Shown: piece by piece, positions 32,774 through 62,649 of the stretch | How the letters are laid out: every line of letters starts with the position of its first letter | Position numbering within the stretch: position 1 is the first letter of the stretch | Assembly (NCBI GenBank): GCA_038245295.1 | Contig: JBBRSP010000017.1 | Location: forward strand, 1-64,000 | Length of the DNA: 64,000 bases | Direction: 5' to 3' | DNA from: Candidatus Binatia bacterium | GTDB lineage: Bacteria > Desulfobacterota > Binatia > HRBIN30 | Notes under the pieces: generated by a model | Database searches by the model: none | Seen by the model: the letters and a program-made list of their open reading frames with translations, nothing else | Told to the model about the DNA's origin: nothing | Made by a program: the position numbers and the translations under genes

Positions 32774-32830
32774 CGTAGAACTAAATGCGTGGGTTTACGA
32801 CCTACCGCGCCCGGCGCCTAGCGATAGAAG
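32774..32830 (+). promoter_or_regulatory. Tandem-box promoter, site 1 (radical SAM gene)
   Basis: CGTAGAACTAAA-TG-CGTGGGTTTACG-ACCTAC then TAGAAG 25 nt after box 2. Confidence 0.6.
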
Positions 32831-32924
32831 GTCGAACCCTTGCACTCGGGGTGAGTGCGGCCAGCTCGACCTTTCAAAGCCAGCGCGCCGCCGCTGTAGC
32901 TGACGCGTGCGAGAGGAGTGCTCA

Positions 32925-34538
32925 ATGCTCGTGTTCCTGATCCATATCCGTGACCCACAATTCTACGCCCTGCCGGCGGCGACTCGCGCCGCCAATGGCA
33001 ATATCCGCGTCATGGGCTTTCCGCCGATCGGCATCATGTCGTTGTCGGCGGTGCTCAAGCGGGCTGGGCATGAGTGTGTCATGTTCGATCAGGCAAACCC
33101 CGATACTCCCGACGACACGATCATTGATGCAATCCGCCGGCAGCAGCCCGGTCTGGTCGGCCTGAGCTTCTTGAGCACTACAAGTTACCCCTACGCCAAG
33201 TTGCTGGCGCGGCGCATCCGCGCCGTTGATCCCGACGTGCCGTTGGCGTTCGGCGGCGTCTTCGCCACACTCAATGCCGAGCTCGTCAAGACGCAGTGTC
33301 CCGAAGTCAACTTCGTCTGCCGCGGTGACGGCGAGCAATTGATTCTCGACCTGGTGGACCGGATAGACGCACCGGAAACCGTCGCCGGGCTTACCTGGGC
33401 GAAAGACGGCAAGGTGATCCAGAACCCCAATCGGATGATGGACCGCCATCTCGATCAGTGGCCATTTCCCGATCGCGAAAGCCTGAAGCTCGACTTCATC
33501 GAGTCGATGCCTCTCGATGTGCCCGCGGTCCTGTCCATGGAGCGATTCACGACGATGCAAACATCGCGCGGTTGTCCATGGCCGTGTGTGTTTTGCGACA
33601 TACCGATCTTCAACGAGGGCAAATGGCGCTCGCGCAGTGCCCAACACGTGGTCGATGAGTTCAAAGAGCTACAGCGATTGGGCTACGGCGCCGTGTACTT
33701 CGTCGATGATCACTTCCTGCTGCAACCCAAACGCATCGAAGCCATCTGCAACGGGATCAATGAGGCTGGCGTAACGATTCAGTGGGGCTGTGAAGGCCGT
33801 GTCGATTCGACGGCGCAACATCTTTTTCCGGCGATGGTAAAAGCGCATTGCCGCACCATCATGTTCGGTGTCGAGAGCGGCAGTCAGACGGTGCTGGACC
33901 GACTGAAGAAAGAACAAACGTTGGCGGAGGTCGAGAACGCGGTCACCAACGCGAAACGCGCCGGCATCGAGATCGTCCACGGCTTCTTCGTCGTCGGTAC
34001 ACCGGGCGAAACGGTCGAGGACATGCGTGCGACGTTTGATTTTGCCGCCAAGCTGCGACTCGACACCTTTGCGTTCAACCGTTTGTGTGTCTACCGCGGC
34101 ACGCCGCTGTGGCACGAGTACCTGACGCGCGGTTTGGTGAACGACGCGGACGATTGGTTCAAGTACTTCAAGTGTTCGGAAATCGATCCCACGTGTTTGT
34201 CCGGTGAGGTCATCAATAACGAACGCAACGCCGGCTTCCGACGACTGTTCCGTTACAAGGTGACACACTATCCGATGCAGACGCTGCGCTTGCTGCGGCG
34301 CTTCATGCGCCACATGCCGGTGCGCGATGTGTTGTACCTGCTCTTCAAGCCCTTCTTCGGCAGCAAACAGGGGCCGACCAAGAACGAAGTCTTGTCGCGC
34401 GCTGTCGAGCATCCGCTCGTCAAGGATGCCGCGGCAAACCTTACTCAGGTATCCGATGACCTGCTCCAGCGGGTCGTCGAAGAGTCGCGCGCCGAGCGAC
34501 GGCGCATCCTCCAGGAGTCTCCCTCCAGCCAGCCGTGA
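32925..34538 (+). CDS. B12-binding-domain radical SAM protein
   Basis: FPPIG, GGVFAT, RGDGE, TSRGCPWPCVFC (CxxxCxxC), FGVESGS. Confidence 0.9.
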   Translation: MLVFLIHIRDPQFYALPAATRAANGNIRVMGFPPIGIMSLSAVLKRAGHECVMFDQANPDTPDDTIIDAIRRQQPGLVGLSFLSTTSYPYAKLLARRIRAVDPDVPLAFGGVFATLNAELVKTQCPEVNFVCRGDGEQLILDLVDRIDAPETVAGLTWAKDGKVIQNPNRMMDRHLDQWPFPDRESLKLDFIESMPLDVPAVLSMERFTTMQTSRGCPWPCVFCDIPIFNEGKWRSRSAQHVVDEFKELQRLGYGAVYFVDDHFLLQPKRIEAICNGINEAGVTIQWGCEGRVDSTAQHLFPAMVKAHCRTIMFGVESGSQTVLDRLKKEQTLAEVENAVTNAKRAGIEIVHGFFVVGTPGETVEDMRATFDFAAKLRLDTFAFNRLCVYRGTPLWHEYLTRGLVNDADDWFKYFKCSEIDPTCLSGEVINNERNAGFRRLFRYKVTHYPMQTLRLLRRFMRHMPVRDVLYLLFKPFFGSKQGPTKNEVLSRAVEHPLVKDAAANLTQVSDDLLQRVVEESRAERRRILQESPSSQP

Positions 34539-34670
34539 CCTGCCCAGATTCGCGACCGGCGCAAGCCCCAGAATTTGCTCGAGGCGCCATTTTGAGGGCT
34601 GACCTCCCTGCCGTTTGCGGTACATTCTCCAACGAGGAGACCGGGCGCATGATAGGCGCCGCTACGCCCG

Positions 34671-34728
34671 CGTAGGACCACGCGCGTAGTTGCCCGAGCT
34701 TACGACCCTGTCGCACCTCCTGTACCAG
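34671..34728 (+). promoter_or_regulatory. Tandem-box promoter, site 2 (FecR/DUF6600 gene)
   Basis: CGTAGGACCACG-CG-CGTAGTTGCCCG-AGCTTA then TACCAG 26 nt after box 2. Confidence 0.75.
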
Positions 34729-34773
34729 AGGAGTAGCAGGTGCCGCGCCTCGACGCGGCCTGGAGGTTCGTTG

Positions 34774-37074: not shown

Positions 37075-37285
37075 TATTCAACTGTCTACCCGTGCCGATC
37101 ACCAGAGTGCGAGCTCGGCGTGCCGCTTGAATCCCAAAGGAGATCAGTGTTGAAAACGCCCCAACTCTTGTCCGTGCGCGAAGATGTTCCCAGTGCCGAA
37201 TGTTGTCACCCTGACATGTCATCCCGGCGAAGGAGTGAGCGTGTCGATTTACTCGGAAACCATATTTGAAACCGAGCAGACCTAT

Positions 37286-37368
37286 CCGTCATACCGGCGA
37301 AAGCCGGTATCTCGCCAGCTTTCGAGGCTTCCAGCAGGGGGAGATCCCGGTTTTCACCGGGATGACGG
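37286..37368. repeat. CGTC-type REP doublet (REPIN-like), copy 1
   Basis: CCGTCATACCGGCGAAAGCCGGTATC...GATCCCGG...CCGGGATGACGG; reverse complement of 57095-57176 with 3 mismatches. Confidence 0.85.
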
Positions 37369-37414
37369 AGGTAGGGCTGGTTGCCCTGAGTTGGTTCCGG
37401 CCAACGGCCGGGCT

Positions 37415-38203
37415 GTGAGGAATTCCGTTGTTCGCGTTTTACTGCGGGTTGTCGGTCTGGCCATCGTCGCGACTGTTGTCGTGGCTCGTGTCGCTGCAGC
37501 GGGCGACGCCGGAGTACCGATCAAACTTTCGTGGACAGAGGGTGACGTCGCCGGGATCTCGTCAATCTTGTCGCCGACCAGCGACAAACCGATTGGCCAT
37601 GTCGAATACCATCAGCAACGCCACGGCGATGTGATCGAGGCGGTGCGTATCGCCCATTTCAACGACGGCTCGAGTGACGAGGATCACGCCGAGGCGCGCG
37701 TCGGCGAGACACTCCGCTCTTTGCGCGGTCGCTCGATCATTCGCAACACGAAGGGTGTTGCCACCTCCGACATTACAATCGACGTTGCGGGCGGGCATAT
37801 TTCCGGATTCTCCGGTCTCGGCAAGGACAGGGTCGCTTACGACGAGCACGTCGAATTGCCCGAGGGCACCTATTGGGGACCGCTGATCTTCATGGTGATC
37901 AAATCGTTCGATGCCAACGCCGTCGACAACCGCCTCGTCTTCCGGACGGTTATCGCGACGCCGAAGCCGCGTGTCATCGATATGGAGCTGTTGAAGAAGA
38001 ACGAGACGACCGTGCGTCACGCGGGCACCGGCATCAAGGCGGTGCAGTTCGTCCTGCGGCCTACGGTGAATTGGTTGGTCGATCCTATCATTCGGATGTT
38101 CGCGCCCGACACGAACTTCTTCGTGAAGGCTGGTGAGCCACCCGCTCTGGTGCGTTTCGCTGGGCCGCGCAACTTTGCCGGCCAGAAAATTCGCATTGAA
38201 TAA
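37415..38203 (+). CDS. Hypothetical exported protein
   Basis: Signal-like VRNSVVRVLLRVVGLAIVATVVVARVAAA; the longer ORF start reads through a REP. Confidence 0.65.
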   Translation: MRNSVVRVLLRVVGLAIVATVVVARVAAAGDAGVPIKLSWTEGDVAGISSILSPTSDKPIGHVEYHQQRHGDVIEAVRIAHFNDGSSDEDHAEARVGETLRSLRGRSIIRNTKGVATSDITIDVAGGHISGFSGLGKDRVAYDEHVELPEGTYWGPLIFMVIKSFDANAVDNRLVFRTVIATPKPRVIDMELLKKNETTVRHAGTGIKAVQFVLRPTVNWLVDPIIRMFAPDTNFFVKAGEPPALVRFAGPRNFAGQKIRIE

Positions 38204-38228
38204 GCCGTCGGATGTCCCGCCGAGCCTA

Positions 38229-38300
38229 CGTAGAAGTACGCGCGTAGGAGCGCGTACGTAGTAGTCCGATCTTACGTCGCCGCCGGATGTTCCGTAAGAA
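38229..38300 (+). promoter_or_regulatory. Tandem-box promoter, site 3 (three boxes)
   Basis: CGTAGAAGTACG-CG-CGTAGGAGCGCG-TA-CGTAGTAGTCCG-ATC-TTACGT-N17-TAAGAA. Confidence 0.8.
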
Positions 38301-38306
38301 GTTGCC

Positions 38307-38684
38307 ATGGCGATGGAAGCAAACCCCGAACTAGCGCGTGTCTCTACTGGAATGAGGCAACTCGATATCCTCTTGCCGTCGCAACATTTCGGTCCGCACC
38401 GCAAGCAGTCACCTGAGCAGCGCCTGATGATCGCTGTGCTGCACGACGCGATCGACTGCATCGAGAAGTTTCGATTTTCTGATGATCCGCAGGGCCGCCG
38501 CATCTTTCACGAAACCAAGCAGTGGCTGGTGTCGAGCGAAACCGACTGGCCATACTCGTTTGAGTGTATCTGCGCCGTGCTCGATCTTGATTCGGATGCG
38601 GTGCGCCAACGCTTGCGGGTAACCCCCGTGCGACACCCGGTGCTGCGGGCTACGCAGGAAGCCCAGCGTATGACAGGAACCTAG
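38307..38684 (+). CDS. Hypothetical small helical protein
   Basis: 125 aa, PEQRLMIAVLHDAI...W...WPYSFECICAVLDLD; directly downstream of site 3. Confidence 0.75.
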   Translation: MAMEANPELARVSTGMRQLDILLPSQHFGPHRKQSPEQRLMIAVLHDAIDCIEKFRFSDDPQGRRIFHETKQWLVSSETDWPYSFECICAVLDLDSDAVRQRLRVTPVRHPVLRATQEAQRMTGT

Positions 38685-38843: not shown

Positions 38844-39164
38844 ATGAGTACTTGGAATCGCTTTGCCACTCTGTCGGTCGCAGTCCTGTTGTCGTCGCTT
38901 GTCGGATGCGCCTCGACGGCCAAACACGAAGGTACCGGTGAGTACATCGACGACACGGTCCTGACGACCAAAGTGAAGGCGGAAGTGTTGGCCGAAGACT
39001 CTCTGAAGTCGAGCGAGATCAACGTCGAGAGCTTCAAGGGTGTTGTTCAATTGAGCGGCTTTGTCTCTTCACAGGCGGACATCAACAAGGCCGTAGAGAT
39101 TGCGCGCCACGTGAAGGGTGTGAAGTCAGTCAAGAATGACATGCGTGTAAAGGGCCAGCAGTAA
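38844..39164 (+). CDS. BON-domain lipoprotein (OsmY-like)
   Basis: LVGC lipobox; GEYIDDTVLTTKVKA, INVESFKGVVQLSGFV, GVKSVKND; GGAGG RBS. Confidence 0.92.
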   Translation: MSTWNRFATLSVAVLLSSLVGCASTAKHEGTGEYIDDTVLTTKVKAEVLAEDSLKSSEINVESFKGVVQLSGFVSSQADINKAVEIARHVKGVKSVKNDMRVKGQQ

Positions 39165-39171
39165 AGTGGTT

Positions 39172-39206
39172 GGTGGCTGATCGCCGAGCCGGGGCAATCA
39201 GCCACC
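39172..39206 (+). terminator. Hairpin after the BON gene
   Basis: GGTGGCTGAT...ATCAGCCACC. Confidence 0.5.
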
Positions 39207-39238: not shown

Positions 39239-39859
39239 GTGGCTGCGCCTACCGTCTTTGTCGTAGACGACAACATAGGCGTGCGCAGGTCGGTGCGGGC
39301 GTTGTTGGAGTCCGCGGGACTGAACGTCGAGACATACGGCGAGGCGGACGAGTTTCGCGCCTCATTCGACCCGCAACGATCCGGTTGCCTGTTGCTTGAT
39401 GTCCGCTTACGAGACAGTTGCGGTCTCGACCTGCAAGACGAGCTGCGGGCGCGCAAGGCGTCGCTTCCGGTCATCGTAATGACCGGTCACGGCAACGTGG
39501 CGATTTCGGTGCGAGCCCTCAAGGCTGGCGCCTTCGACTTTCTGCAGAAGCCGGTGCCGCCGAATATGCTGCTTGAGCGCATCCGTGCGGCAATCGAATA
39601 CGATCGCAACACGCGAACCTCCAGCAGTCAACGTGCCCCTGTCATGAGTGATCTGGCGGGGCTGACACCCCGCGAGGGCGAAGTCATGGAACTACTGGTC
39701 GCGGGTAAGCCATCCAAGGAAATCGCCGAGACCCTGCATGTCAGCGTGCGCACGATCGAAGGGCATCGACGTATGGTGTTGGCCAAGATGAACGTGTCCT
39801 CGGCGGCACAACTCGTCCGCACGGTGCTGAGTGTTCGGGACGCGGCACTGCGGCTCTAG
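39239..39859 (+). CDS. FixJ-family response regulator, paralog 2
   Basis: APTVFVVDDN, LLLDVRL, FLQKPVPPN, SVRTIEGHRR; closely similar to 32107-32730. Confidence 0.92.
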   Translation: MAAPTVFVVDDNIGVRRSVRALLESAGLNVETYGEADEFRASFDPQRSGCLLLDVRLRDSCGLDLQDELRARKASLPVIVMTGHGNVAISVRALKAGAFDFLQKPVPPNMLLERIRAAIEYDRNTRTSSSQRAPVMSDLAGLTPREGEVMELLVAGKPSKEIAETLHVSVRTIEGHRRMVLAKMNVSSAAQLVRTVLSVRDAALRL

Positions 39860-47690: not shown

Positions 47691-47747
47691 GCTTTATCAC
47701 GAACGCCCAAAAGCACGACCCAGGAGAACTGCGCGCGTAGTTCTACG
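47691..47747 (-). promoter_or_regulatory. Tandem-box promoter, site 4a (ice-binding gene)
   Basis: Minus strand CGTAGAACTACG-CG-CGCAGTTCTCCT then TAAAGC 25 nt after box 2. Confidence 0.65.
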
Positions 47748-47770
47748 TGCATCCGCGATGACGAGGGATG

Positions 47771-47842
47771 CGTGTTTCCACGCGCGCAAAAACACGCGCG
47801 TAGTTGTCCGAGCTAACGGTGGCAGGATGCCGCGGGTAGAAA
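47771..47842 (+). promoter_or_regulatory. Tandem-box promoter, site 4b (three boxes)
   Basis: CGTGTTTCCACG-CG-CGCAAAAACACG-CG-CGTAGTTGTCCG-AGCTAA then TAGAAA 26 nt after the last box. Confidence 0.75.
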
Positions 47843-51979: not shown

Positions 51980-52037
51980 CGTAGAACTACCTGCGTAATT
52001 CCCCGACCTTTAATCGGCGTTGCGGCGCTTGTATCAA
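51980..52037 (+). promoter_or_regulatory. Tandem-box promoter, site 5 (hybrid kinase)
   Basis: CGTAGAACTACC-TG-CGTAATTCCCCG-ACCTTT then TATCAA 26 nt after box 2. Confidence 0.72.
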
Positions 52038-53634: not shown

Positions 53635-53867
53635 AGTACCTTGGTTCGCAAACTCGGCCACGTATCGCGCTCGTGCTGAGCCTGTTCTAGGGGCGGTTCG
53701 GGAACCGCCCGCTTCTGTCTGAGCTTATCGAAGGATGAACGGCGAGCCTAAGTACTATTCGGCGCAGGTACGGTGACGTACCCGCAACCGCCCTCCGCAG
53801 TCTAAAGCCTGCGCCTACCCGTCCGCTTCAGGGTGCGCACTCAGTCTGGTAGGCGCAGGCTTTAGCC
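53635..53867. repeat. Mosaic of REP-like elements between convergent genes
   Basis: CTAGGGGCGGTTCGGGAACCGCCC hairpin, CTGAGCTTATCGAAGGA unit, GTAGGCGCAGGCTTTAG inverted pair, two AGTAC...ACGTA units. Confidence 0.7.
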
Positions 53868-53869
53868 GT

Positions 53870-54037
53870 TTAGTCGACGGCGTCCTTGATCTTGTCGATC
53901 ACCTTCTCGGCATGTTGCTTCACTTTGCCGATGGACTGATCGACACGTCCTTCGTGCTTCAGCTTAGCATCGCCGGTGAGGGCGCCGGCCGCTTCTTTTA
54001 CACGTCCCTTGAGCTCATCAATTTTTCCACTGGTCAT
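53870..54037 (-). CDS. CsbD-family stress protein (55 aa, absent from ORF track)
   Basis: MTSGKIDELKGRVKEAAGALTGDAKLKHEGRVDQSIGKVKQ; AAGGAG RBS. Confidence 0.92.
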   Translation of the reverse strand: MTSGKIDELKGRVKEAAGALTGDAKLKHEGRVDQSIGKVKQHAEKVIDKIKDAVD

Positions 54038-54082
54038 GTGCGTTACTCCTTTGTTTGCGTTGTGACGTTACGTTCAAAAACC

Positions 54083-54154
54083 ACTCTAAGGTGGGCCATC
54101 CATGCGGCAAGATCGGATTACCACGCGCGTAGTTTCACGCGGCGTGGATATCCG
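54083..54154 (-). promoter_or_regulatory. Tandem-box promoter, site 6 (csbD)
   Basis: Minus strand CGTGAAACTACG-CG-CGTGGTAATCCG-ATC-TTGCCG-N16-TAGAGT; possible third box at 54143-54154. Confidence 0.75.
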
Positions 54155-54162
54155 CAGTTGCA

Positions 54163-55881
54163 CTAGTGCCGCACGCGCCCTTTCAGGATGTTGTGTTCGA
54201 TGGTCGGGATGAGGTCCTGGAGGATTACGTCCTCGTAACGTCCCGACGTCGGGTTCGTCAGATCAGGCACCTGCGATTCTGACACCCGGTGGTTCACGTA
54301 GAACGAGCCCTTGCGTCCGCCGGCGCCAGGAAGGACAACGACGAACATGTTCTGCATCTGCTTCGACACCATCAGTGGGTCGAGCATGTCGCCGAGGCGC
54401 TCGTAGTCGTTTGGCGACTGGCCATAACCGGGCAGGATATACAGTACAGGAAAGCTCCTTGTCGTATGGAAGTATGCCGGTGGGCGATAGATCAGCACCG
54501 CCTCGTTCGGGGTCGCACCGCTCCCCAGACGCAGTGAGGGGGCGGCGATCATCGACTTCATGATATCACCGCGCGGATCGAGGTCGGTGATATCGATGTC
54601 GCCGGGCCCGTGAAATCCGTCGGCGAAGCTTGAGTCGACGTACGCGAACAGCGTCAAGAGACGCTGCCAGACGACCAACTGGCCGCAGACGTTGCCGTGT
54701 AACAACTGGTCGGTTGTATCATCGGCTTCCGGCACGCCGACGTGACCGCCGGTGTACTGAACCATCAGGAATTGCTGTGACAGGGTGGGGAACTGCGTGC
54801 AGTTGCCGGGAAAGTCACCGAGGCTGTCGACGGTAAGTCCTTTGGAACGCAGCAGCGCCACGAAGTTCTCATAGTGACGTCCGAAGCCGAATTGGTCCTC
54901 GCTGCCGACATCCATGTAGATGCGCTGCGTCGCGATGTCGGTTGCCGAGCGCGCCGCGGTGCGCGTCAGCGGATCCTCGGCCAGCCAGTTGGCGCGATCG
55001 GGATCGTAGTCGAATTGGCCGTTGCCCTCGCCGAAGTCGCTGGTTCCGGCAACGCCGTCGAGGCCGACATCCTGAAACGTCTCGCCCAATTCCGGCTCGT
55101 AGACGAGATTGTCGTTGGTGTCGGTAAACGGCTCGGAGAAGTTGACGACGATACCTTCACCGACATCGTAGACACCGTCGCTGTCCAAGTCAGCCAGCTT
55201 GCGCCCACCGACATCCACCGCGGTGGCGCCGCTGACGATCATCGGGAGTGACCCGACGGCAAGCAGGGCAACGTCGGCCGACTGGGTCGGTGTCTCGCTG
55301 ATTTGGCGAGCCCCGTCCTGGTTGGCATCGCCGCCATCGAGAAACTGCATCGGGTTGGCCGACAGGGTGAAGGTCCCAAAGGCGTCGTCCCGCAGCAGAT
55401 GTGCCGGCTGCGAGTCCATCGCCAGATATTGACGCGTCGGATCGGTATGGTGCAGGACCGGATTGCCGAAGGCGATGACCAGATCCTTATTCATTGCCAG
55501 TCGCAGATCACGCCCGGGATAGGGGGCCTGATGGTCGAAGGTGAAGTCGTCGCCGACGTTGAGCGGGCGCGTTGTTTGCGCCTTCACTTCGAGGTTGTCG
55601 TGGACAACGTCGCGCAGCAGTTGCCGCATGTCGACAGGGCCGCCGAGCGAGGCAATCGTGCTGAAGGTGTCGGCGTGTTTGGTGCCGAGGTTCATGGCGC
55701 CAAAGGCGCCCATCGAAACGCCACTGATGGCGCGGTACTGGCGCTCGATTGTCAGGGACCCGCCGGGAGTCGGGCTCGGCCCGACATCAGGCCCGCTGCC
55801 CCCATGCCCCCCACACGCGGCGAGGGCGGTAAGGGTAAGAGGGAGAACGCGGCTCAGGAAACTCTTGGTTAGGGATAACAT
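54163..55881 (-). CDS. Lipoprotein esterase (Fes/antigen-85-like alpha/beta fold, permuted domain order) with Ca-binding loops
   Basis: LAAC lipobox; RAISGVSMG near the N-terminus; MDVGSED; GGH; YRPPAY..FPVLYILPG...DLIPTIE at the C-terminus. Confidence 0.75.
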   Translation of the reverse strand: MLSLTKSFLSRVLPLTLTALAACGGHGGSGPDVGPSPTPGGSLTIERQYRAISGVSMGAFGAMNLGTKHADTFSTIASLGGPVDMRQLLRDVVHDNLEVKAQTTRPLNVGDDFTFDHQAPYPGRDLRLAMNKDLVIAFGNPVLHHTDPTRQYLAMDSQPAHLLRDDAFGTFTLSANPMQFLDGGDANQDGARQISETPTQSADVALLAVGSLPMIVSGATAVDVGGRKLADLDSDGVYDVGEGIVVNFSEPFTDTNDNLVYEPELGETFQDVGLDGVAGTSDFGEGNGQFDYDPDRANWLAEDPLTRTAARSATDIATQRIYMDVGSEDQFGFGRHYENFVALLRSKGLTVDSLGDFPGNCTQFPTLSQQFLMVQYTGGHVGVPEADDTTDQLLHGNVCGQLVVWQRLLTLFAYVDSSFADGFHGPGDIDITDLDPRGDIMKSMIAAPSLRLGSGATPNEAVLIYRPPAYFHTTRSFPVLYILPGYGQSPNDYERLGDMLDPLMVSKQMQNMFVVVLPGAGGRKGSFYVNHRVSESQVPDLTNPTSGRYEDVILQDLIPTIEHNILKGRVRH

Positions 55882-55890
55882 AAGAAACCT

Positions 55891-56298
55891 TTACGGGCCG
55901 ACTTCGGTGAAGCCGGTAACTTCCAGCGTACTCATGAAACGACCGTCGGTGCGGTCGGGGAGCTGCGGGAAGGTGAAGTGGAAGGCAGTGCTGGCGTGCG
56001 GCGCCAGATCGTTGGCCAGCTCGAACGGTACGGCGCGACCGGGGTTGTCGGCGCTCGGGTGTAACTCATCGGTCCATAGAAACTGTTGCCGCAGCTCCAA
56101 GTGAATACCGTGCAACGTCGAGCCCGACTTGTTGATGAGTGTGCCCGATACCGAGGTGCCGGCAATCGCGACATCGCTGAGCGTCACCGTGCGTTCGGCG
56201 TCACCCGGTTGCAGCACGGTCGCCGCTAGGGTCGCGCCGGGGCGCGAGACGAGAGGTAGCCCGAGGAGGGCAACAAATAGAAAAATGCGTGGGGTCAT
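55891..56298 (-). CDS. Hypothetical exported protein
   Basis: Signal peptide, beta-rich 135 aa, downstream of sod. Confidence 0.65.
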   Translation of the reverse strand: MTPRIFLFVALLGLPLVSRPGATLAATVLQPGDAERTVTLSDVAIAGTSVSGTLINKSGSTLHGIHLELRQQFLWTDELHPSADNPGRAVPFELANDLAPHASTAFHFTFPQLPDRTDGRFMSTLEVTGFTEVGP

Positions 56299-56314
56299 GA
56301 TCGAACTCCAGTGT

Positions 56315-56929
56315 TTACAGTCCAAGATCGAGCGTGCGCACCTTCTTGAAGCGTTGCGCTACGTCTTGCCAGTTGACGATCTTCCAGAACGCCGTGACCC
56401 AGTCGGCTTTGACGTTCTTGTATTGCAGGTAATAGGCGTGCTCCCACATATCGAGAACCAGCAACGGAACGGTCCCATTGCCGATGTTGCCCTGGTGATC
56501 GTAGACCTGCTCGACGACCAGCCGCTGGCCGACCGGCTCCCAGGCCATGGCGCCCCATCCGGAACCCTGAACGTTGAGCGCCGCCTGGGTCAGCTGACTC
56601 TGCAGCCCGTCGACGGAACCAAATGATTCCTTGATGGCGGCACCCAGGTCGTCCGGAGGCGCTCCACCGCCCTTGGGGCTCATATTGAGCCAGAACAGGG
56701 AGTGCAGGACGTGGCCGGAGACGTGAAAGGCGAGATTCTTCTGCAGTTGGTTGATGGCGTCGAAGTTGTTCTGCTCACGCGCCGCGGCAAGTTTGTCGAG
56801 CGTCGCGTTGGCGCCTGTGACATATGCGGCGTGGTGTTTGGTGTGGTGCAATTCCAGGAGGGCCGCGGAGTAGTGCGGCTCCAAGGCGGCGTAGTCGTAA
56901 GGTAGATCGGGAAGGGTGTATTTCTTCAT
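56315..56929 (-). CDS. sodA: Fe/Mn superoxide dismutase
   Basis: YTLPDLPYDYAALEP, LHHTKHHAAYV, GHVLHSLFW, QGSGW, DMWEHAYY; GGAGG RBS. Confidence 0.95.
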   Translation of the reverse strand: MKKYTLPDLPYDYAALEPHYSAALLELHHTKHHAAYVTGANATLDKLAAAREQNNFDAINQLQKNLAFHVSGHVLHSLFWLNMSPKGGGAPPDDLGAAIKESFGSVDGLQSQLTQAALNVQGSGWGAMAWEPVGQRLVVEQVYDHQGNIGNGTVPLLVLDMWEHAYYLQYKNVKADWVTAFWKIVNWQDVAQRFKKVRTLDLGL

Positions 56930-57094
56930 AGGGACCTCCATCGTCCATAGGATGCGCCCTGGAAGAGGTGCCGCCAATATACGAAATGCAAGAAGTGAAT
57001 CTGCGAGCGCTCACGTAAGTGTGGAGACACGGCGCAAGAGTGTCCGGCACTGGATACCGGCTTCCGGGACCGTCGATAAACTGAAATGGAGCAA

Positions 57095-57176
57095 CGTCAT
57101 CCCGGCGAAAGCCGGGATCTCCCCCTGCTGGAAGCCTCGAAGGCTGGCGAGATACCGGCTTTCGCCGGTATGACGG
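57095..57176. repeat. CGTC-type REP doublet, copy 2
   Basis: Inverted copy of 37286-37368. Confidence 0.85.
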
Positions 57177-57258
57177 AGGTGTTTGCGCAGTTGCAAACGA
57201 TGAATCAGAGAAAATCGATAGTCTCTTCTTCAGCCTGCGCTCGCTTGTTGGTCGAGCG

Positions 57259-57408
57259 TTACAATCGACCGGTAAGCAACAGCACAACCAGCACGAGCAA
57301 GATGATCCCGCCGACGCCGGAGGGAGCATAGCCGTAGTTGTGATAACCCCAGTTCGGCAGACCGCCGAAGACCAATAGCAACAAGACGACGAGTAGAATG
57401 AGAGGCAT
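57259..57408 (-). CDS. DUF3309 small membrane protein (49 aa, absent from ORF track)
   Basis: LLVFGGLPNWGYHNYGYAPSGVGG...LTGRL; AAGGAG RBS. Confidence 0.9.
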   Translation of the reverse strand: MPLILLVVLLLLVFGGLPNWGYHNYGYAPSGVGGIILLVLVVLLLTGRL

Positions 57409-57437
57409 GGGAGTTCTCCTTTGGATGGCTCCGAGAG

Positions 57438-57725
57438 TTAGGTCCGCGGTGCTGCAGCGGTGCTTGGCGCCGTCGCATGAGTCGTCTGGGCCCGGAGGTG
57501 CTCACCTAGTTCGCTGGCTTTCTCGGCCAGGTCGTGGCGAATCTGTTGGCCTGCCTTCGGGGCGAACAGCAACGCCAAGCCGGCTCCCAGCATGATGCCG
57601 GTGCCAAAGACTCCGAACACGCCAAGCGTCGAAGCGACCCGGCTGGTCGACTTGGTCTGTAAACCGATGGCGTTTGCCAACTCTTCCTTTGATGGAAGGG
57701 CCTCGAGAAGATCTTCGAGTTTCAT
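57438..57725 (-). CDS. YtxH-domain protein
   Basis: GIMLGAGLALLFAPKAGQQIRHDL; AAGGAG RBS. Confidence 0.85.
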   Translation of the reverse strand: MKLEDLLEALPSKEELANAIGLQTKSTSRVASTLGVFGVFGTGIMLGAGLALLFAPKAGQQIRHDLAEKASELGEHLRAQTTHATAPSTAAAPRT

Positions 57726-57746
57726 GATGGCTGCTCCTTTGGGTCG

Positions 57747-58118
57747 CTAGACCCGTTCAACCGCCACGCTACGCGGCGGGGTGTTGCTGGAAGGAAAAAG
57801 TCGGGCGCTGATTTCGCGTGTTGCCAGCACGGTGGCAAATCGGGTCGCCGCACCAAGCAGGACAACGGTCAGTCGCGAGTTGAGCCCGCCGCCGAGAACG
57901 TAGCCAATGCCGAGGGCGGCACCCAATGTTACGTAGGGCCGCTGTTTAAGCTGGTGCGTCAGGGTCTGTTGCGCCGCGCTGGAAGCGTCGCGCACTGCTT
58001 CGGCGAGGGCCGTCGCGTCATGTTGGATCTCGCGCGCGTGTTGGCGCAGCGAGCGCTCGTCGACAAATTCGGCGTTTGCGGCACTCCAGGCGCCGTTAAC
58101 GTGCGTGGCGTGGGTCAT
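57747..58118 (-). CDS. DUF883/ElaB-YqjD-like tail-anchored protein
   Basis: Helical N-region then QRPYVTLGAALGIGYVLG. Confidence 0.65.
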   Translation of the reverse strand: MTHATHVNGAWSAANAEFVDERSLRQHAREIQHDATALAEAVRDASSAAQQTLTHQLKQRPYVTLGAALGIGYVLGGGLNSRLTVVLLGAATRFATVLATREISARLFPSSNTPPRSVAVERV

Positions 58119-58351
58119 CGCCGAGCCCGCCTAAGGCTGGAGACGATGCGTCCCATCACAAACCCGAAAGCGACGGCGCCCAGGATTGCGACGACGGGCC
58201 GTTGGCGAACGCCGCGGCGCGTCCGTTCCTGTAACTCCGTGAGTGTCGTGCCGACGGTGTCGATATCGGCTCCGACGGCATCAACGAGGGGCGCGATAGA
58301 TTCGTCGGCAAGGATGGTGTCGGTGGTCATCGTGGTCTCCTGTGTCTCCAT
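58115..58351 (-). CDS. DUF883-like small tail-anchored protein
   Basis: VRQRPVVAILGAVAFGFVMGRIVS; start may be the second Met (AGGAG RBS). Confidence 0.6.
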   Translation of the reverse strand: METQETTMTTDTILADESIAPLVDAVGADIDTVGTTLTELQERTRRGVRQRPVVAILGAVAFGFVMGRIVSSLRRARR

Positions 58352-58372
58352 GCAATGAAACAGTCACGCTTC

Positions 58373-58430
58373 TTTCTATCGGCATGTCAGGTAAGCAGTA
58401 AGCTCGGAGTACTACGCGCGTGCTTCTACG
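58373..58430 (-). promoter_or_regulatory. Tandem-box promoter, site 7 (DUF883-DUF883-YtxH-DUF3309 operon)
   Basis: Minus strand CGTAGAAGCACG-CG-CGTAGTACTCCG-AGC-TTACTG-N17-TAGAAA. Confidence 0.82.
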
Positions 58431-58545
58431 CGGCGACGGCGTTGCGGCGCTCATGGAGTGGTCTGTGCCGGTGTGTTGCCAGCGGGATGGGCCACGAAAT
58501 TACGTGGCTAGTGCAGCGCCGCGGTGGTCAGTATAAGTGCCCGCC

Positions 58546-59532
58546 ATGAACGCCGCGGAGAAGCCGTTGAGTCTGTCCCCGGCGCCGCTGATCGATGTCG
58601 AGGAGTTGGAAGTGCGCTACGGCACACGCGCCGCTCTGCGTGGTCTTAGTTTTACAGTGAAGGCCGGCGAGGTCGTCGGACTGCTCGGACCAAACGGCGC
58701 CGGAAAGACAACGACGTTTTCGGTCCTCGCGACGCTACGTAAGCCAGATGCGGGGCGCGTCACCGTCGCCGGCCTGTCGGTGGCCGACGCCCCCAAACAG
58801 GTGCGCCGAATGCTCGGCGTCGTTCCACAATCTCTCGCTCTGTATCCGACGTTCAGCGCCCGCGAGAATGTGGTTCTCTTCGCGCGGTTGGCGGGGTTAC
58901 GTGGCCGGGCGGTACACGTCGCCGCGACGGCGGCCCTGCAACTCGTCGGTCTCGAGGATCGCGCCGACGATCGCGTCGGGTCGTTTTCCGGCGGTATGCA
59001 ACACCGGCTTAATTTGGCCTGTGGCATCCTGCACGCGCCGCGTGTCGTACTGCTCGACGAACCTACCGTCGGCGTCGATCCGCAGTCGCGCGAGCGCATC
59101 GGCGAGGCGGTGCGCGATCAAGCCCGGCGCGGCGCCGCGGTTCTTTACAGCACTCATGATCTCGACGAGGCCGAGCGCGTTTGCGACCGCGTAGTGCTGA
59201 TCGACGAAGGACACGTGGTGAGCGACGGCACGCCGGAGGAGTTGATTCGCCGCTCGGGTGGCGTGCTGCGCCTCGAGGTCGTCACCCGCGCGCCGCTGCC
59301 CGTCGGTTGGTTTGAGGGGGTGGACGGAGTTGTTCCGATCCACGCCGCAGCGGTGGCGCCGCTATTGAGCCGGGGCCCGACTGTCCATGTCGGACTCACT
59401 GACCTGAGCAGCGCGTCGCGCGTTCTCGAGCGCGCCACGGCGTGTGGTGGGGGAGTGCTCGAGTTTCATGTCCACCAACCCAGCCTGCAGGACGTGTTCA
59501 TGGCGCTGACCGGGCGGGCGCTGCGCGATTGA
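58546..59532 (+). CDS. ABC-2 type exporter ATP-binding protein
   Basis: GPNGAGKTT, FSGGMQHRL, LLDEPTVGVD, STH. Confidence 0.92.
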   Translation: MNAAEKPLSLSPAPLIDVEELEVRYGTRAALRGLSFTVKAGEVVGLLGPNGAGKTTTFSVLATLRKPDAGRVTVAGLSVADAPKQVRRMLGVVPQSLALYPTFSARENVVLFARLAGLRGRAVHVAATAALQLVGLEDRADDRVGSFSGGMQHRLNLACGILHAPRVVLLDEPTVGVDPQSRERIGEAVRDQARRGAAVLYSTHDLDEAERVCDRVVLIDEGHVVSDGTPEELIRRSGGVLRLEVVTRAPLPVGWFEGVDGVVPIHAAAVAPLLSRGPTVHVGLTDLSSASRVLERATACGGGVLEFHVHQPSLQDVFMALTGRALRD

Positions 59533-59539
59533 GGATTGT

Positions 59540-61219: not shown

Positions 61220-61354
61220 GTGGATCGATTGTGCGAGTCGCGGGTAGCCGCAGGCTTTAGAGGTTGGCGCAAAACTCGCTGAGCCGGCTTCGACAGGCTC
61301 ATGGTTCGACGAGCTCACCATGGGAGGGTGTTTGGTTGATTCCGAAGGCAGTTT

Positions 61355-61406
61355 TCCGCTCGCCCTGATCTAGTCGAAGGGTGAGCGTAGGTTTTGAGAT
61401 ACCCTC
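61355..61406. repeat. REP-like intergenic repeat, copy 2
   Basis: Matches 9-60. Confidence 0.75.
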
Positions 61407-61509
61407 TTTTGCCTGCGCTGTAGGTCAATTGTGCGAGAAAGGGGGGGCCCCGGCGGCGAGAGAAGGGCGATCGTTACCCGCCGCCGGGTTGTGTGTAGAG
61501 GTGAGGCGG

Positions 61510-62523
61510 CTACTCTACTCGAAGCTCTACACGACGGTTCTGGGCGCGGCCGTCATCGGTATCGTTCGAGGCAACCGGCTTTGATTCGCCGAAACCTTCG
61601 GTCTTGATCCGATCAGCTGGCAGGCCGCGCTTTACGAGGTAATCACGAACCGCGCTAGCGCGGCGCTCGGAGAGTTTCTCATTGTACGAATCGGAGCCTT
61701 TGCTGTCGGTGTGGCCTTCGACGATTACCAGGACACCGCCTTCGGCTTTCAACGTCGCTGCCGCTTCGTCGAGAACGGGGGCAGCGTCTTTACGGATATT
61801 CGACTTGTCGAAATCAAAATGCACGCTGCGCAGCACCAGCTTCTTCTTGACGGGCGGCGCCGGGGCTGGGGCCGGAGCTTGTGCGACGACCGGAGCCGGA
61901 GCTGGACGCGGTGCTTCGGCCGGGCCGTTGAAGGCGTACTTCACACCGATACCAACCGTGGCCCACTGGGCGTCGGCCGGACCCTGGTCGTCTTGCGCCT
62001 GGTTGGACAAGGTTGTCGGGCGTGGCGACATGTAGGTTCGATTCCAGCGCCCGAAGACACCCAGGGCGACCTGAGGTGTGATGTTGAAGTCGATACCACC
62101 GCCAACGGAGAAGCCTGGCGCCGTGTGGTTCAAGCGTCCGCTGAGCCCGGTGAAGGCACCACCCTGACCGGTTGCATAAATGTCGACCATCTCACCAAGC
62201 GGCACGGAAAGGCGCGGACCAATGGTCCCGCCAAGCATGGTGGTGGTTTGGTTCTCGTGGCTGAAGCCGCGGTGATCGTTGTCCGGCAGCTGCCCCGTAA
62301 AGTGCAGTTGGCCTTGCAGGCCGAGGTAGTCGTTGAACATGTAACCCACATAAGGGTTGGCGGTCGCTCCCTCATGGACGTGGGCGCGGTAGTTCTTATT
62401 GGTCGGCAGCGACGCACCGAGGTCGATACCAACGAAAGCACCATCCGCGTGAACGGTGGTGGCGGCCCAGAGCAGCAGCGGCGGAGTTACCAGCAGGAAG
62501 CGTTTACGCAGGTTCATTGTCAT
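61510..62523 (-). CDS. OmpA-family outer membrane protein (beta-barrel + peptidoglycan-binding domain)
   Basis: Signal peptide; barrel ending GVKYAF; PA linker; VHFDFDKS, EGHTDSKGS..YNEKLSERRA, NRRVE. Confidence 0.92.
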   Translation of the reverse strand: MTMNLRKRFLLVTPPLLLWAATTVHADGAFVGIDLGASLPTNKNYRAHVHEGATANPYVGYMFNDYLGLQGQLHFTGQLPDNDHRGFSHENQTTTMLGGTIGPRLSVPLGEMVDIYATGQGGAFTGLSGRLNHTAPGFSVGGGIDFNITPQVALGVFGRWNRTYMSPRPTTLSNQAQDDQGPADAQWATVGIGVKYAFNGPAEAPRPAPAPVVAQAPAPAPAPPVKKKLVLRSVHFDFDKSNIRKDAAPVLDEAAATLKAEGGVLVIVEGHTDSKGSDSYNEKLSERRASAVRDYLVKRGLPADRIKTEGFGESKPVASNDTDDGRAQNRRVELRVE

Positions 62524-62592
62524 ATCCTCTTTTCCGTTCATGGTGGCCCGGGCACTGGCGATCGGTTGATCGGTGAGCTGACCACGAGTCCT

Positions 62593-62649
62593 GTTATAGG
62601 TTGTCGGCCCTGCTCCATAAGCTCGGAGTACTACGCGCGTGGTTCTACG
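62593..62649 (-). promoter_or_regulatory. Tandem-box promoter, site 8 (ompA)
   Basis: Minus strand CGTAGAACCACG-CG-CGTAGTACTCCG-AGC-TTATGG-N16-TATAAC; core 31/32 identical to site 7. Confidence 0.82.

What the first reader, a model, noticed from the sequence alone, without database searches (positions are those of the whole stretch)
32774..62649. Nine copies of an unannotated tandem-box promoter define a candidate FixJ-family general-stress regulon
Seen: nine intergenic sites at 32774+, 34671+, 38229+, 47747-, 47771+, 51980+, 54139-, 58430- and 62649-. Each has 2-3 12-bp boxes related to the palindrome CGTAG-NN-CTACG at a 14-bp period (consensus CGTAGAAnyACG-CG-CGTAGTwnTCCG-AkCTTA). Each points toward the downstream gene, and the last box ends 25-26 bp before a TAnnnn hexamer (TATAAC, TAGAGT, TAGAAA, TAAGAA, TATCAA etc.), so it abuts a weak -35 with 16-17 bp spacing. 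The rplU promoter here (TTGACA-N17-TAGTAC) shows such -10 elements are plausible in this genome. I saw no full copy in the first 32 kb. Established: LuxR/NarL/FixJ regulators bind tandem inverted repeats next to -35. From memory and needing verification, an in vitro selected FixJ consensus GTAGTTTCCC resembles box 2 (GTAGTTGCCC, GTAATTCCCC). Inference: the two FixJ paralogs in the island activate these promoters, whose targets include csbD, BON/OsmY, DUF883/YtxH/DUF3309, ompA, an ice-binding protein, a B12 radical SAM enzyme and a hybrid kinase.
Basis: partly seen in the sequence, partly recalled or inferred. Interest (0 to 1): 0.9.

Follow-up and report, generated by a model that had tools for sequence, protein, structure and literature searches.

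The report
Stress-gene promoter motif of Binatia
A conserved 32-base tandem-box sequence sits at a fixed distance in front of about 25 stress-type genes in this uncultured Binatia bacterium and always travels with one clade of FixJ-like response regulators, which are therefore the likely activators that bind it; this would be a first regulatory circuit for a class of bacteria nobody has grown.

Summary
A matrix built from the nine window sites finds 25 distinct sites in the 6.63-Mb genome, 16 of them outside the window. Reversed and shuffled genomes give none at that score.

A logo of 100 sites from 10 genomes reads cgCGTAGAACyACG-CG-CGTAGTAnTCCG-AG-CTTACGGCG, then a 16-18 bp spacer, then TACAAg. 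An ATG lies 5-7 nt after that -10-like hexamer in 31 of the 88 sites that have one, implying leaderless mRNAs. About a fifth of sites carry a third in-phase box.

Targets are CsbD, BON, YtxH, DUF3309, YflT, hemerythrin-like, OmpA, kinases and a Binatia-only small protein ("SP125").

The motif is patchy across Binatia. It co-occurs with the regulator clade: 19 of 19 multi-site genomes among 61, none of 39 motif-free genomes. In a 151-genome class sample, 23 have both, 119 neither and 9 disagree. The conserved gene order is CheB/CheR-PAS kinase, regulator, motif, SP125.

Binding, activation and stress induction are inferred only. No RNA data were found. This is a new member of a known kind (a DosR-like tandem-box regulon), not a new mechanism.

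The parts
32774..32830 (+). Motif promoter 1 (weakest window copy): two boxes, -35 TACCGC, -10 TAGAAG. It lies 44 nt after the RR1 stop and points at the B12-radical SAM gene.
   Evidence: (31.1 bits)
34671..34728 (+). Motif promoter 2: two boxes, -35 TTACGA, -10 TACCAG. It points at the DUF6600 gene (ATG 34774) and the 339-aa unknown gene after it.
   Evidence: (43.0 bits)
38229..38300 (+). Motif promoter 3: three boxes, -10 TAAGAA. The predicted start at 38307 is the ATG of SP125 (leaderless). The predicted operon is SP125-BON-RR2.
47691..47747 (-). Motif promoter 4 (weak box 2, no CTTA): points at the ice-binding-like gene. It stands back to back with promoter 5.
   Evidence: (33.2 bits)
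47771..47842 (+). Motif promoter 5: three boxes, -10 TAGAAA. The predicted start at 47849 is the GTG of the 533-aa unknown ORF, which is followed by ADH and Nramp genes.
   Evidence: (40.5 bits)
51980..52037 (+). Motif promoter 6: -10 TATCAA, predicted start about 52044, ATG at 52046 (leaderless). Target is the PAS-HisKA-HATPase-REC hybrid kinase.
   Evidence: (38.6 bits)
54083..54139 (-). Motif promoter 7: -10 TAGAGT. Target is csbD (54037-53870), which has a Shine-Dalgarno-like leader.
   Evidence: (38.4 bits)
58373..58430 (-). Motif promoter 8: -10 TAGAAA. The predicted operon is the 78-aa and 123-aa membrane proteins, YtxH and DUF3309. It may continue into SOD.
   Evidence: (46.2 bits)
62593..62649 (-). 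Motif promoter 9 (best copy): -10 TATAAC. Target is the OmpA-family gene.
   Evidence: (47.6 bits)
28316..32110 (+). Sensor kinase with CheB methylesterase, CheR methyltransferase, two PAS domains, HisKA and HATPase. Its end overlaps the RR1 start. No motif lies upstream of it in this genome.
   Evidence: Orthologues of 61% identity or more in 17 of 19 motif-bearing genomes, and none above 49% elsewhere.
32107..32730 (+). RR1: FixJ-like response regulator (REC + GerE HTH) and candidate box-binding activator.
39239..39859 (+). RR2: paralogue, 64% identical to RR1, last gene of the motif-driven SP125-BON-RR2 unit. This predicts a positive feedback loop.
38307..38684 (+). SP125: 125-aa protein of a Binatia-only family of unknown fold. 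It is the most conserved motif target and is usually leaderless.
38844..39164 (+). BON-domain protein, between SP125 and RR2.

Best explanation
The repeated element is an activator-dependent promoter, and the FixJ-like response regulators RR1 and RR2 are predicted to bind its boxes and switch on a stress-type regulon.

Shown by the sequence:
- A 26-bp core holds two 12-bp palindrome-like boxes, CGTAGAACyACG and CGTAGTAnTCCG, 14 bp apart. A third weaker box lies in phase upstream in about one promoter in five.
- The core runs straight into a poor -35 (TTACGG). A 16-18 bp spacer and a -10-like TACAAg follow.
- Many target genes start with an ATG exactly where transcription should begin.

Inferred:
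- An unknown signal is sensed by the CheB/CheR-PAS histidine kinase encoded just upstream of RR1.
- The kinase phosphorylates RR1 at the conserved Asp.
- RR1~P dimers cooperatively occupy the boxes, which span about -65 to -39.
- From there they recruit RNA polymerase to an otherwise weak promoter, as DosR and FixJ do.
- RR2 lies in a box-driven operon with SP125 and a BON protein. Further kinases are also box-driven. Together these would amplify and tune the response.
- The output is a set of envelope, desiccation, osmotic and oxidative protection proteins.
For: 1. Real, non-random motif. There are 25 distinct sites at 20 bits or more in the genome, against 0 in the reversed and block-shuffled genomes. 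Sixteen were not in the training set.

2. Promoter geometry. In 100 sites from 10 genomes the information is confined to positions -1..37 and 53-58. TA lies at 52-54 in 87 of 100 sites and an ATG at 64-66 in 37 of 100. After re-aligning on the -10, the spacer is 16, 17 or 18 bp in 16, 55 and 16 of 88 sites. An ATG then lies 5-7 nt after the hexamer in 31 of 88.

3. Location. 23 of 25 own-genome sites are in non-coding-like DNA, against 71% coding-like for random positions. All face a gene.

4. Third box. An in-phase third box with 6 or more of 9 matches occurs in 21 of 100 sites, against 0 of 100 for an out-of-phase control.

5. Co-occurrence in the 61 genomes.
- All 19 genomes with 4 or more motif matches have a regulator at least 58% identical to RR1.
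- All 39 genomes without a match have at best 53% identity.
- Three genomes with 1-2 matches have none.
- Five genera hold both states: g2, g10, g18, g27 and g30.

6. Co-occurrence in the 151-genome class sample.
- Motif at E<=0.001 against regulator profile at E<=1e-70 gives 23 both, 3 motif only, 6 regulator only and 119 neither.
- With the regulator cut-off at 1e-80, chosen before the call, the counts are 22, 4, 1 and 124.

7. Physical linkage. The order kinase, regulator, motif, SP125 recurs in G023, G015, G030, G006, G051 and G009. It also recurs in other families: G146, G166 and G133 have the whole order, and G132 the regulator-motif pair. In G039 a motif precedes the kinase-regulator operon itself.

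8. Regulator identity.
- REC + GerE.
- Invariant acidic pocket, D55 and K105.
- Best family hit is FixJ.
- Best solved relatives are StyR at 8.6e-44 and FixJ at 3.9e-41.
- The clade is monophyletic against own-genome paralogues with support 100/99.
- Its recognition helix SVRTVEGHRR is conserved across families, while the motif core is too.

9. No rival regulator in the islands. Pfam finds no DNA-binding domain other than the two regulators in window 28-64 kb. No Sigma70_r2 gene lies in the islands of the 5 genomes checked.

10. Precedent.
- FixJ SELEX sites are GTAGTTTCCC and GTAMGTAG, the fixK site is TAAGTAATTTCCCTTA, and footprints span -69..-44 and -57..-31 (PMC4999443, passages).
- Tandem boxes are the hallmark of DosR promoters (PMC3177182, abstract).
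- A DosR dimer contacts sigma region 4 and alpha (PMC13486717, abstract).

11. Gene content. CsbD (two copies), YflT, BON, YtxH, DUF3309, hemerythrin-like, OmpA, LolA-like, TRL and kinases in this genome. Relatives add multi-BON, CsbD, Holin-X, DUF1328, hemerythrin and PAS kinases.
Against: - No experiment or transcript data exist. No RNA run holds this DNA, so binding, activation, the start site and stress induction are all inferred.
- Co-occurrence does not single out the regulator. The kinase and the SP125 subfamily show nearly the same pattern, because the whole island is gained and lost together.
- The half-sites are only 7 bp apart centre to centre and the boxes 14 bp apart. By my recollection LuxR/NarL-type dimers use about 9-10 bp, so the stoichiometry is unclear.
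- The -10 consensus TACAAg lacks the usual T at its last position, which occurs in 16 of 88 sites. A non-housekeeping sigma cannot be excluded.
- Discordant genomes exist. G026, G029, G125 and G167 have 1-2 motif hits without a clade regulator. G157 has a borderline regulator without a motif. G029 is a 680-contig assembly and its sites lie near contig ends.
- The similarity to FixJ sites is partial, 7 of 10 to the consensus.
- Many targets have no known function, so 'general stress' is a label taken from a subset.
Confidence: 0.7

Rival explanations
1. The boxes are read by another island-encoded factor, most plausibly the small protein SP125. The FixJ-like regulators would act on other DNA or only indirectly.
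For: - SP125 is the most conserved motif target: 18 sites in 9 of 10 genomes.
- It sits next to the regulator in the conserved core.
- Its high-scoring subfamily tracks the motif.
- Its C-terminal part is two short helices joined by a turn, with invariant residues. By eye this looks like a helix-turn-helix.
Against: - No DNA-binding family or fold was matched: Pfam and NCBIfam gave none, Foldseek gave no hit, and the best VIA Z was 5.8 on helical bundles.
- The wider family is in 61 of 61 Binatia genomes, including motif-free ones.
- In this genome 11 of 13 members lie away from such regulators, in unrelated contexts.
- Palindromic tandem boxes abutting -35 are typical of GerE-type regulators.
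Confidence: 0.1
2. The conserved -35-region CTTACGGCG and the TACAAg hexamer belong to an alternative stress sigma factor. That sigma would be the main switch, with the boxes only modulating.
For: - The -35 region is conserved well beyond TT, across positions 29-37.
- The -10 lacks the T at its last position, and TG abuts it.
- The genome has 14 Sigma70_r2 genes and no RpoS above the family cut-off.
Against: - No sigma gene lies in the islands of the 5 genomes checked.
- The motif's patchy distribution would need a sigma with the same distribution, and none was seen.
- By my recollection of the known ECF, SigB and EcfG consensus sequences, this motif does not resemble them.
- Most of the information lies in the upstream boxes.
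- The rplU promoter of this genome also has a -10 without the final T.
Confidence: 0.07
3. The boxes are operators of a repressor, either the same regulators or another protein, that keeps the genes off until stress.
For: Palindromic tandem sites close to the core promoter could also serve repression. NarL/FixJ-type regulators can repress (recalled).
Against: - The boxes end upstream of the -35 and do not overlap the spacer, the -10 or the start.
- The -35 is poor: TTACGG matches TTGACA at 2 of 6 positions. This fits a need for activation.
- The phase relative to the -10 is fixed within 1 bp.
Confidence: 0.08
4. The element is a non-regulatory repeat: a REP-like or mobile element, a terminator, or a structured RNA.
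For: It is repeated and partly palindromic. One copy lies 44 nt after a gene end (32774).
Against: - The flanks are not conserved.
- Every copy faces a gene at a fixed distance.
- There is no Rfam match in 28-64 kb.
- Folding energy is no better than shuffles, with z-scores of 0.84, -0.43 and -0.16.
- No tRNA lies in the window.
Confidence: 0.02

Closest known systems
FixJ of rhizobia at the fixK and nifA promoters (FixL-FixJ two-component system)
   Same: - Same regulator subfamily: the best NCBIfam hit is FixJ and solved FixJ 5XSO matches at 3.9e-41.
- The binding region lies just upstream of, and touching, the -35. FixJ footprints span -69..-44 and -57..-31, against about -65..-39 predicted here.
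- The site flavour is similar: GTAGT...TCC...CTTA here, against SELEX GTAGTTTCCC and the fixK site TAAGTAATTTCCCTTA (PMC4999443, passages).
   Different: - The score is below the FixJ equivalog cut-off: 202 and 182 bits against 255.
- The partner kinase is a CheB/CheR-PAS kinase, not FixL.
- There are about 25 stress-type targets here. The only conserved FixJ target named in the text I read is fixK.
- The boxes are 12-bp palindromes at a strict 14-bp period, and the organism is Binatia.
DosR/DevR dormancy regulon of Mycobacterium tuberculosis (NarL-type regulator, tandem Dev boxes)
   Same: - A response regulator of the LuxR-C superfamily runs a multi-gene stress or dormancy regulon.
- At least two tandem boxes are the architectural hallmark (PMC3177182, abstract).
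- The activator recruits polymerase through sigma region 4 and alpha (PMC13486717, abstract).
- The regulator's own gene lies in the regulon (recalled for DosR; seen here for RR2).
   Different: - A different subfamily: DevR 3C3W matches only at 8.9e-14.
- An 18-bp Dev box against the 12-bp boxes here.
- Different sensors: by my recollection, haem-GAF kinases for DosR.
- No experimental support here.
Sigma-factor-based general stress responses (SigB, RpoS, EcfG-PhyR)
   Same: Overlapping output: CsbD, YflT, BON/OsmY-like, YtxH and DUF883-like small membrane proteins, and SOD. That these are classic members of those regulons is from my recollection.
   Different: - The control element here is an upstream activator site, not a distinct -35/-10 pair.
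- No dedicated sigma lies in the islands.
- No RpoS scores above the cut-off in this genome.
StyR / TodT (FixJ-subfamily regulators of aromatic catabolism)
   Same: StyR is the closest solved full-length relative (1YIO, 8.6e-44).
   Different: By my recollection they bind 16-bp palindromes far upstream of sigma-54 or IHF-dependent promoters and control catabolic operons. Neither the motif nor the targets resemble this case.

Membership tests
FixJ/NarL-type response regulators (REC + LuxR-C/GerE HTH) | N-terminal receiver domain with a phospho-acceptor Asp and conserved Lys | tested here: met
   PF00072 matches at 4.4e-28 and 2.8e-25. D11, D12, D55 and K105 are invariant in 14 clade members.
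FixJ/NarL-type response regulators (REC + LuxR-C/GerE HTH) | C-terminal GerE/LuxR helix-turn-helix | tested here: met
   PF00196 matches at 2.1e-17 and 1.2e-17.
FixJ proper (NCBIfam NF006900 equivalog) | Score above the curated cut-off of 255 bits | tested here: not met
   202.0 bits for RR1 and 182.1 bits for RR2. They are FixJ-like, not FixJ.
FixJ proper (NCBIfam NF006900 equivalog) | Haem-PAS FixL partner kinase and fixK as target | tested here: inconclusive
   The adjacent kinase has CheB, CheR, PAS_10, PAS_4, HisKA and HATPase domains. Haem binding was not testable. No fixK-like gene is among the targets examined.
Activator-dependent promoter with tandem response-regulator boxes abutting -35 (DosR/FixJ-like architecture) | Two or more boxes in a fixed tandem register | tested here: met
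   A strict 14-bp period in 100 of 100 aligned sites. A third in-phase box in 21 of 100 sites, against 0 of 100 out of phase.
Activator-dependent promoter with tandem response-regulator boxes abutting -35 (DosR/FixJ-like architecture) | Fixed distance to a -10 element and to the transcript start | tested here: met
   TA at positions 52-54 in 87 of 100 sites and an ATG at 64-66 in 37 of 100. The spacer is 16-18 bp in 87 of 88 sites. This is sequence inference only; no start site was mapped.
Activator-dependent promoter with tandem response-regulator boxes abutting -35 (DosR/FixJ-like architecture) | Direct binding of the phosphorylated regulator and activation | not testable with these tools
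   The only support is co-occurrence and linkage.
General stress response regulon | Typical stress-protein content | tested here: met
   CsbD (two copies), YflT, BON, YtxH, DUF3309, hemerythrin-like and OmpA. A Fe/Mn SOD gene lies downstream of promoter 8 and may belong to that operon. Multi-BON, CsbD, Holin-X and DUF1328 appear in relatives.
General stress response regulon | Co-induction by several unrelated stresses | not testable with these tools
   No RNA run was listed.
Alternative-sigma promoter (ECF / SigB / RpoS type) | A dedicated sigma gene linked to, or co-distributed with, the motif | tested here: not met
   No Sigma70_r2 gene lies in the islands of G000, G023, G015, G030 or G039. 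No RpoS scores above the cut-off. Co-distribution of the distant sigma genes was not tested.
REP-like / mobile repeat or structured RNA | Conserved flanks, a stable hairpin or a known RNA family | tested here: not met
   Flank information is near zero. There is no Rfam match. Folds are no better than shuffles.

The most novel reading that the evidence does not exclude
Binatia that carry this island run their general stress response not through an alternative sigma factor but through a methylation-adapting CheB/CheR-fused kinase. That kinase feeds a duplicated FixJ-like regulator pair. The regulators read chains of 7-bp-phased half-sites and fire mostly leaderless transcripts. The Binatia-only small protein SP125, always the first gene switched on, is a new kind of feedback regulator of the circuit.
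Probability: 0.25. Interest if true: 0.7.

Novelty: new member of a known kind. Interest (0 to 1): 0.5.

Why it matters
Binatia are abundant in soils, peat and sediments but uncultured, and I found no description of their gene regulation. One search for 'Binatia' plus 'response regulator' returned one paper, on a soil resistome by its title. This is a limited search, not proof of absence.

The finding gives a clean, testable regulatory circuit for the class:
- a defined cis-element with predicted transcript starts;
- a candidate sensor kinase and regulator pair;
- a list of about 25 target promoters per genome.

It also points to many small proteins of unknown function (SP125, a Cys-rich secreted family, the 78-, 123- and 144-aa proteins) as likely stress proteins. 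The motif can be used to annotate promoters and leaderless starts in Binatia MAGs.

Mechanistically it is expected to work like DosR or FixJ, so it extends a known principle rather than overturning one.

Tried and rejected
- **Expression evidence.** The look-up of sequencing runs on window 53700-58600 listed 4 DNA-type runs and no RNA holder. No reads were laid.
- **Protein-protein test of RR against SP125.** The queue was full and nothing was folded, so nothing can be said on binding.
- **Fold of SP125.** The AF2 model has mean pLDDT 71.3. Foldseek against the PDB gave no match at E<=0.001. VIA wide gave a best Z of 5.8 on unrelated helical bundles. The ESM Atlas returned only Binatota hypothetical clusters. 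The fold and function stay open.
- **SP125 as an obligate partner of FixJ-like regulators.** Rejected. Only 2 of 13 family members in this genome lie within 3 kb of such a regulator, and the other neighbourhoods are unrelated.
- **Dedicated sigma factor in the island.** None found in 5 genomes. The sigma gene 4 kb from the C5 sites is separated from them by an opposite-strand ORF.
- **RpoS.** No hit above the cut-off. This does not show that the genome lacks a stress sigma.
- **Structured RNA, terminator or REP reading.** Rejected.
- **Motif outside Binatia.** The exact-pattern scan of species-representative genomes gave 47 stretches. I looked at seven of them. A Halioglobus-labelled hit lacks box 1 and is probably chance. 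A Polyangiaceae-labelled contig has the full motif, and I did not resolve whether it is mis-binned.
- **Paralogous regulator/SP125-like pairs.** Pairs in own contig C8 and in G023, G025 and G021 show other, GGGAA/TTCCC-rich sequences between the genes. I did not develop this.
- **Earlier notes of this scan.** They hold nothing on this motif.

Full report
**1.

Reading the nine stated positions shows the same element each time: two 12-bp boxes 14 bp apart, followed by A-G/T/C-CTTA. The copies at 38229+ and 47771+ carry one more box upstream.

I built a 32-column matrix from the nine copies and scanned the whole assembly (6.63 Mb, 129 contigs; the window is contig C17:1-64000).
- The scan gives 84 raw hits at 12 bits or more, with a clear gap in the score list.
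- There are 25 distinct sites at 20 bits or more, 9 in the window and 16 elsewhere.
- The reversed genome and a block-shuffled genome give no hit at 20 bits; their maxima are 19.9 and 18.8.

**2. It is a promoter-shaped element.**

I fetched island regions from nine relatives and found 79 more sites at 18 bits or more. A logo was made from 100 sites, 25 from this genome and 75 from relatives at 24 bits or more.
- Information is confined to positions -1 to 37: cg CGTAGAACyACG CG CGTAGTAnTCCG AG CTTACGGCG.
- A second patch lies at positions 53-58. Everything else is at background, so this is not part of a longer repeat.
- TA starts at position 52, 53 or 54 in 87 of 100 sites.
- After re-aligning on that TA, the hexamer reads T88 A88 C49 A74 A70 G39/A29, counted out of 88 sites.
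- The spacer from a -35 at positions 30-35 is 16, 17 or 18 bp in 16, 55 and 16 of the 88 sites.

An ATG begins at positions 64-66 in 37 of 100 sites, while neighbouring positions hold 0-3 each. After re-aligning on the -10-like hexamer, the first ATG lies 5-7 nt after it in 31 of the 88 sites that have one. That is where a transcript should start, so many of these mRNAs are predicted to be leaderless. In the window the predicted starts fall on three start codons:
- the ATG of the small protein gene at 38307;
- 2 nt before the ATG at 52046 of the hybrid kinase;
- the GTG at 47849.

Further support for the promoter reading:
- A third in-phase box (6 or more of 9 matches) is present in 21 of 100 sites. 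The same test 7 bp out of phase finds none.
- By a crude ORF/GC3 heuristic, 23 of 25 own-genome sites are in non-coding-like DNA, against 71% coding-like for 3000 random 32-mers. The two exceptions are frames that run on from the downstream gene.
- There is no Rfam family and no fold better than shuffles.

**3. What the promoters drive.**

In the window:
- a B12-radical SAM enzyme;
- a DUF6600 protein followed by a 339-aa unknown;
- the unit SP125, BON, RR2;
- an ice-binding-like protein;
- a 533-aa unknown followed by ADH and Nramp genes;
- a PAS hybrid kinase;
- CsbD;
- an operon of 78-aa and 123-aa membrane proteins, YtxH and DUF3309;
- an OmpA-family protein.

Pfam did not confirm DUF883 for the 78-aa or 123-aa proteins.

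Outside the window:
- YflT;
- a second CsbD followed by an apolipophorin-like helical protein;
- a lipid A acyltransferase (leaderless);
- a LolA-like protein;
- a hemerythrin-like protein;
- a TRL lipoprotein;
- a HisKA kinase;
- a DUF7933/DUF11 giant protein;
- several unknowns.

In relatives, the first ORF after a site includes multi-BON proteins, CsbD, Holin-X, DUF1328, hemerythrin, DUF1207, DUF2141, DUF6600, TRL, an esterase and REC-PAS kinases.

I clustered first ORFs across the ten genomes. The most conserved targets are:
- SP125: 18 sites in 9 genomes;
- a Cys-rich secreted protein: 8 sites in 7 genomes;
- CsbD: 7 sites in 6 genomes.

This is the flavour of a general stress, desiccation or envelope regulon. 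That label is an inference from content.

**4. Who reads the boxes.**

RR1 (32107-32730) and RR2 (39239-39859):
- are REC+GerE proteins and 64% identical to each other;
- hit the FixJ equivalog model best, but below its cut-off: 202 and 182 bits against 255;
- for RR1, the protein I searched with, match solved StyR (8.6e-44) and FixJ (3.9e-41) best.

RR1 overlaps the end of a 1264-aa kinase that carries CheB, CheR, two PAS domains, HisKA and HATPase.

The motif is patchy, which allows a phyletic test. A sequence-only profile of the 25 sites was run over this genome and 60 relatives.
- It matches 22 genomes. Nineteen have 4-59 matches and three have 1-2.
- RR1 searched over the same 61 genomes finds proteins of 58-75% identity in exactly those 19. 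Everywhere else the best is 53% or lower.
- Five genera contain both states.

In an evenly drawn sample of 151 Binatia genomes I compared the motif at E<=0.001 with the regulator profile at E<=1e-70.
- The counts are 23 both, 3 motif only, 6 regulator only and 119 neither.
- At 1e-80, a threshold I set before the call from the score of an own-genome paralogue, they are 22, 4, 1 and 124.

Kin are not independent, so I give no p-value.

Linkage is as telling as co-occurrence.
- The order kinase, regulator, motif, SP125 recurs in G023, G015, G030, G006, G051 and G009.
- The same regulator-then-motif arrangement is seen in other families of the class: G079, G146, G166, G133 and G132.
- There the recognition helix SVRTVEGHRR and the box core are both retained.
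- In G039 a motif precedes the kinase-regulator operon itself.
- A tree places all island regulators in one clade apart from two own-genome FixJ-like paralogues (support 100/99). Within it there is a kinase-linked group and a second-copy group (80/85).
- The paralogues differ in the recognition helix.

**5. Rivals.**

Because the island is inherited as a block, the kinase and the SP125 subfamily track the motif almost as well.
- Kinase orthologues occur in 17 of 19 motif-bearing genomes and none elsewhere.
- The SP125 subfamily tracks the motif too.

SP125 is an all-helical protein of unknown fold with two invariant cysteines.
- Its wider family is present in all 61 genomes, at 3-25 copies each.
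- Most copies lie in unrelated contexts.
- It remains a minor candidate for the DNA-binding or co-factor role.

No sigma gene lies in the islands of the five genomes checked. However, the unusual -10 (T at the last position in only 16 of 88 sites) and the conserved -35 region mean that a non-housekeeping sigma is not excluded.

Repression is unlikely, because the boxes stop upstream of a poor -35.

**6. Comparison with what is known.**

PMC4999443 states the following (passages read; I did not read the original papers):
[quoted passage not shown] - FixJ protects -69..-44 and -57..-31.

Box 2 plus its tail (GTAGTAnTCCGAGCTTA) shares GTAGT, TCC/CC and CTTA with these. Individual copies such as GTAATTCCCC at 51980 are closer still.

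Architecturally the nearest studied case is DosR.
- Tandem boxes are the hallmark of its promoters (PMC3177182, abstract).
- The dimer recruits polymerase through sigma region 4 and alpha (PMC13486717, abstract).

What differs here:
- the regulator subfamily;
- the CheB/CheR-fused sensor;
- the short 12-bp boxes with half-sites 7 bp apart;
- the frequency of leaderless targets;
- the host class.

**7. Distribution.**

The exact core pattern occurs in 47 stretches of the species-representative genome collection. Nearly all are from MAGs titled Candidatus Binatia, or from MAGs whose contigs are those of the Binatia relatives. Earlier notes of this scan had already called this genome Binatia. Record titles and protein names agree.

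**8. Verdict.**

- The promoter reading is strongly supported by sequence.
- The FixJ-like activator reading is well supported by comparative genomics but untested.
- The stress label is plausible.
- It is a new member of a known kind of circuit, valuable mainly as the first worked-out regulon of an uncultured class.

Noticed in passing
window 38307-38684 (+); 12 further copies in the genome, e.g. C13:62459-62779 and C8:168361-168645: SP125 family. Proteins are about 105-175 aa with no Pfam or NCBIfam hit. A profile search returned 808 homologues, and every source name among the 120 listed is 'hypothetical protein'. The family is in 61 of 61 Binatia genomes searched, at 3-25 copies each. It has two invariant Cys, an unknown helical fold and often a leaderless start.
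   Followed up: partly
window 28316-32110 (+): A histidine kinase fused to a CheB methylesterase and a CheR methyltransferase (CheB-CheR-PAS-PAS-HisKA-HATPase). It is conserved with the regulator across Binatia families. This suggests a self-methylating, adapting sensor.
   Followed up: partly
100 motif sites, positions 53-58; window 20154-20182: The -10-like hexamer of the regulon is TACAAg, with TG directly in front and a T at its last position in only 16 of 88 sites. The rplU promoter (TTGACA-N17-TAGTAC) also lacks that T. Binatia promoters may have an unusual -10.
   Followed up: partly
L001 (C3:334415-334906, -) and relatives' loci L046, L047, L058, L060, L062, L063: A secreted Cys-rich protein with three repeats of a C..G...CQ.G..(Y/H)RC.DG.W motif is a motif target in 7 of 10 genomes. 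It has no Pfam hit.
   Followed up: no
L046:15697-16206, L049:17318-17815, L056:8879-9259: A second small unknown family with CxxC...CxxC cysteines (zinc-ribbon-like by eye) follows motif sites in G023, G015 and G030.
   Followed up: no
own genome C8:168361-169436 (L116): A paralogous FixJ-like regulator and an SP125-like gene lie divergently. A different palindrome, GGGAATGCTTTCCC, sits between them. Similar GGGAA/TTCCC-rich spacers occur in G023, G025 and G021. Paralogous regulators may each have their own box.
   Followed up: partly
window 47691-47842: Two motif promoters stand back to back, with 23 bp between their outermost boxes. They drive the ice-binding-like gene and the 533-aa/ADH/Nramp unit in opposite directions.
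   Followed up: no
L102 (contig titled uncultured Polyangiaceae bacterium): A complete motif with box 1, a -10 at the right distance and an ATG lies on a 23-kb contig of a MAG labelled Polyangiaceae. This could be mis-binning or a transfer.
   Followed up: no
own genome, whole: No RpoS above the family cut-off (best 293.5 bits against 378.7, and that hit lies in a 625-aa frame, probably the housekeeping sigma). The genome has 14 Sigma70_r2 genes.
   Followed up: partly
G039:C8 (L053 5435-9978): In this relative a top-scoring motif copy lies directly upstream of the CheB/CheR kinase-regulator operon. That is direct autoregulation, which the window's own genome lacks.
   Followed up: partly
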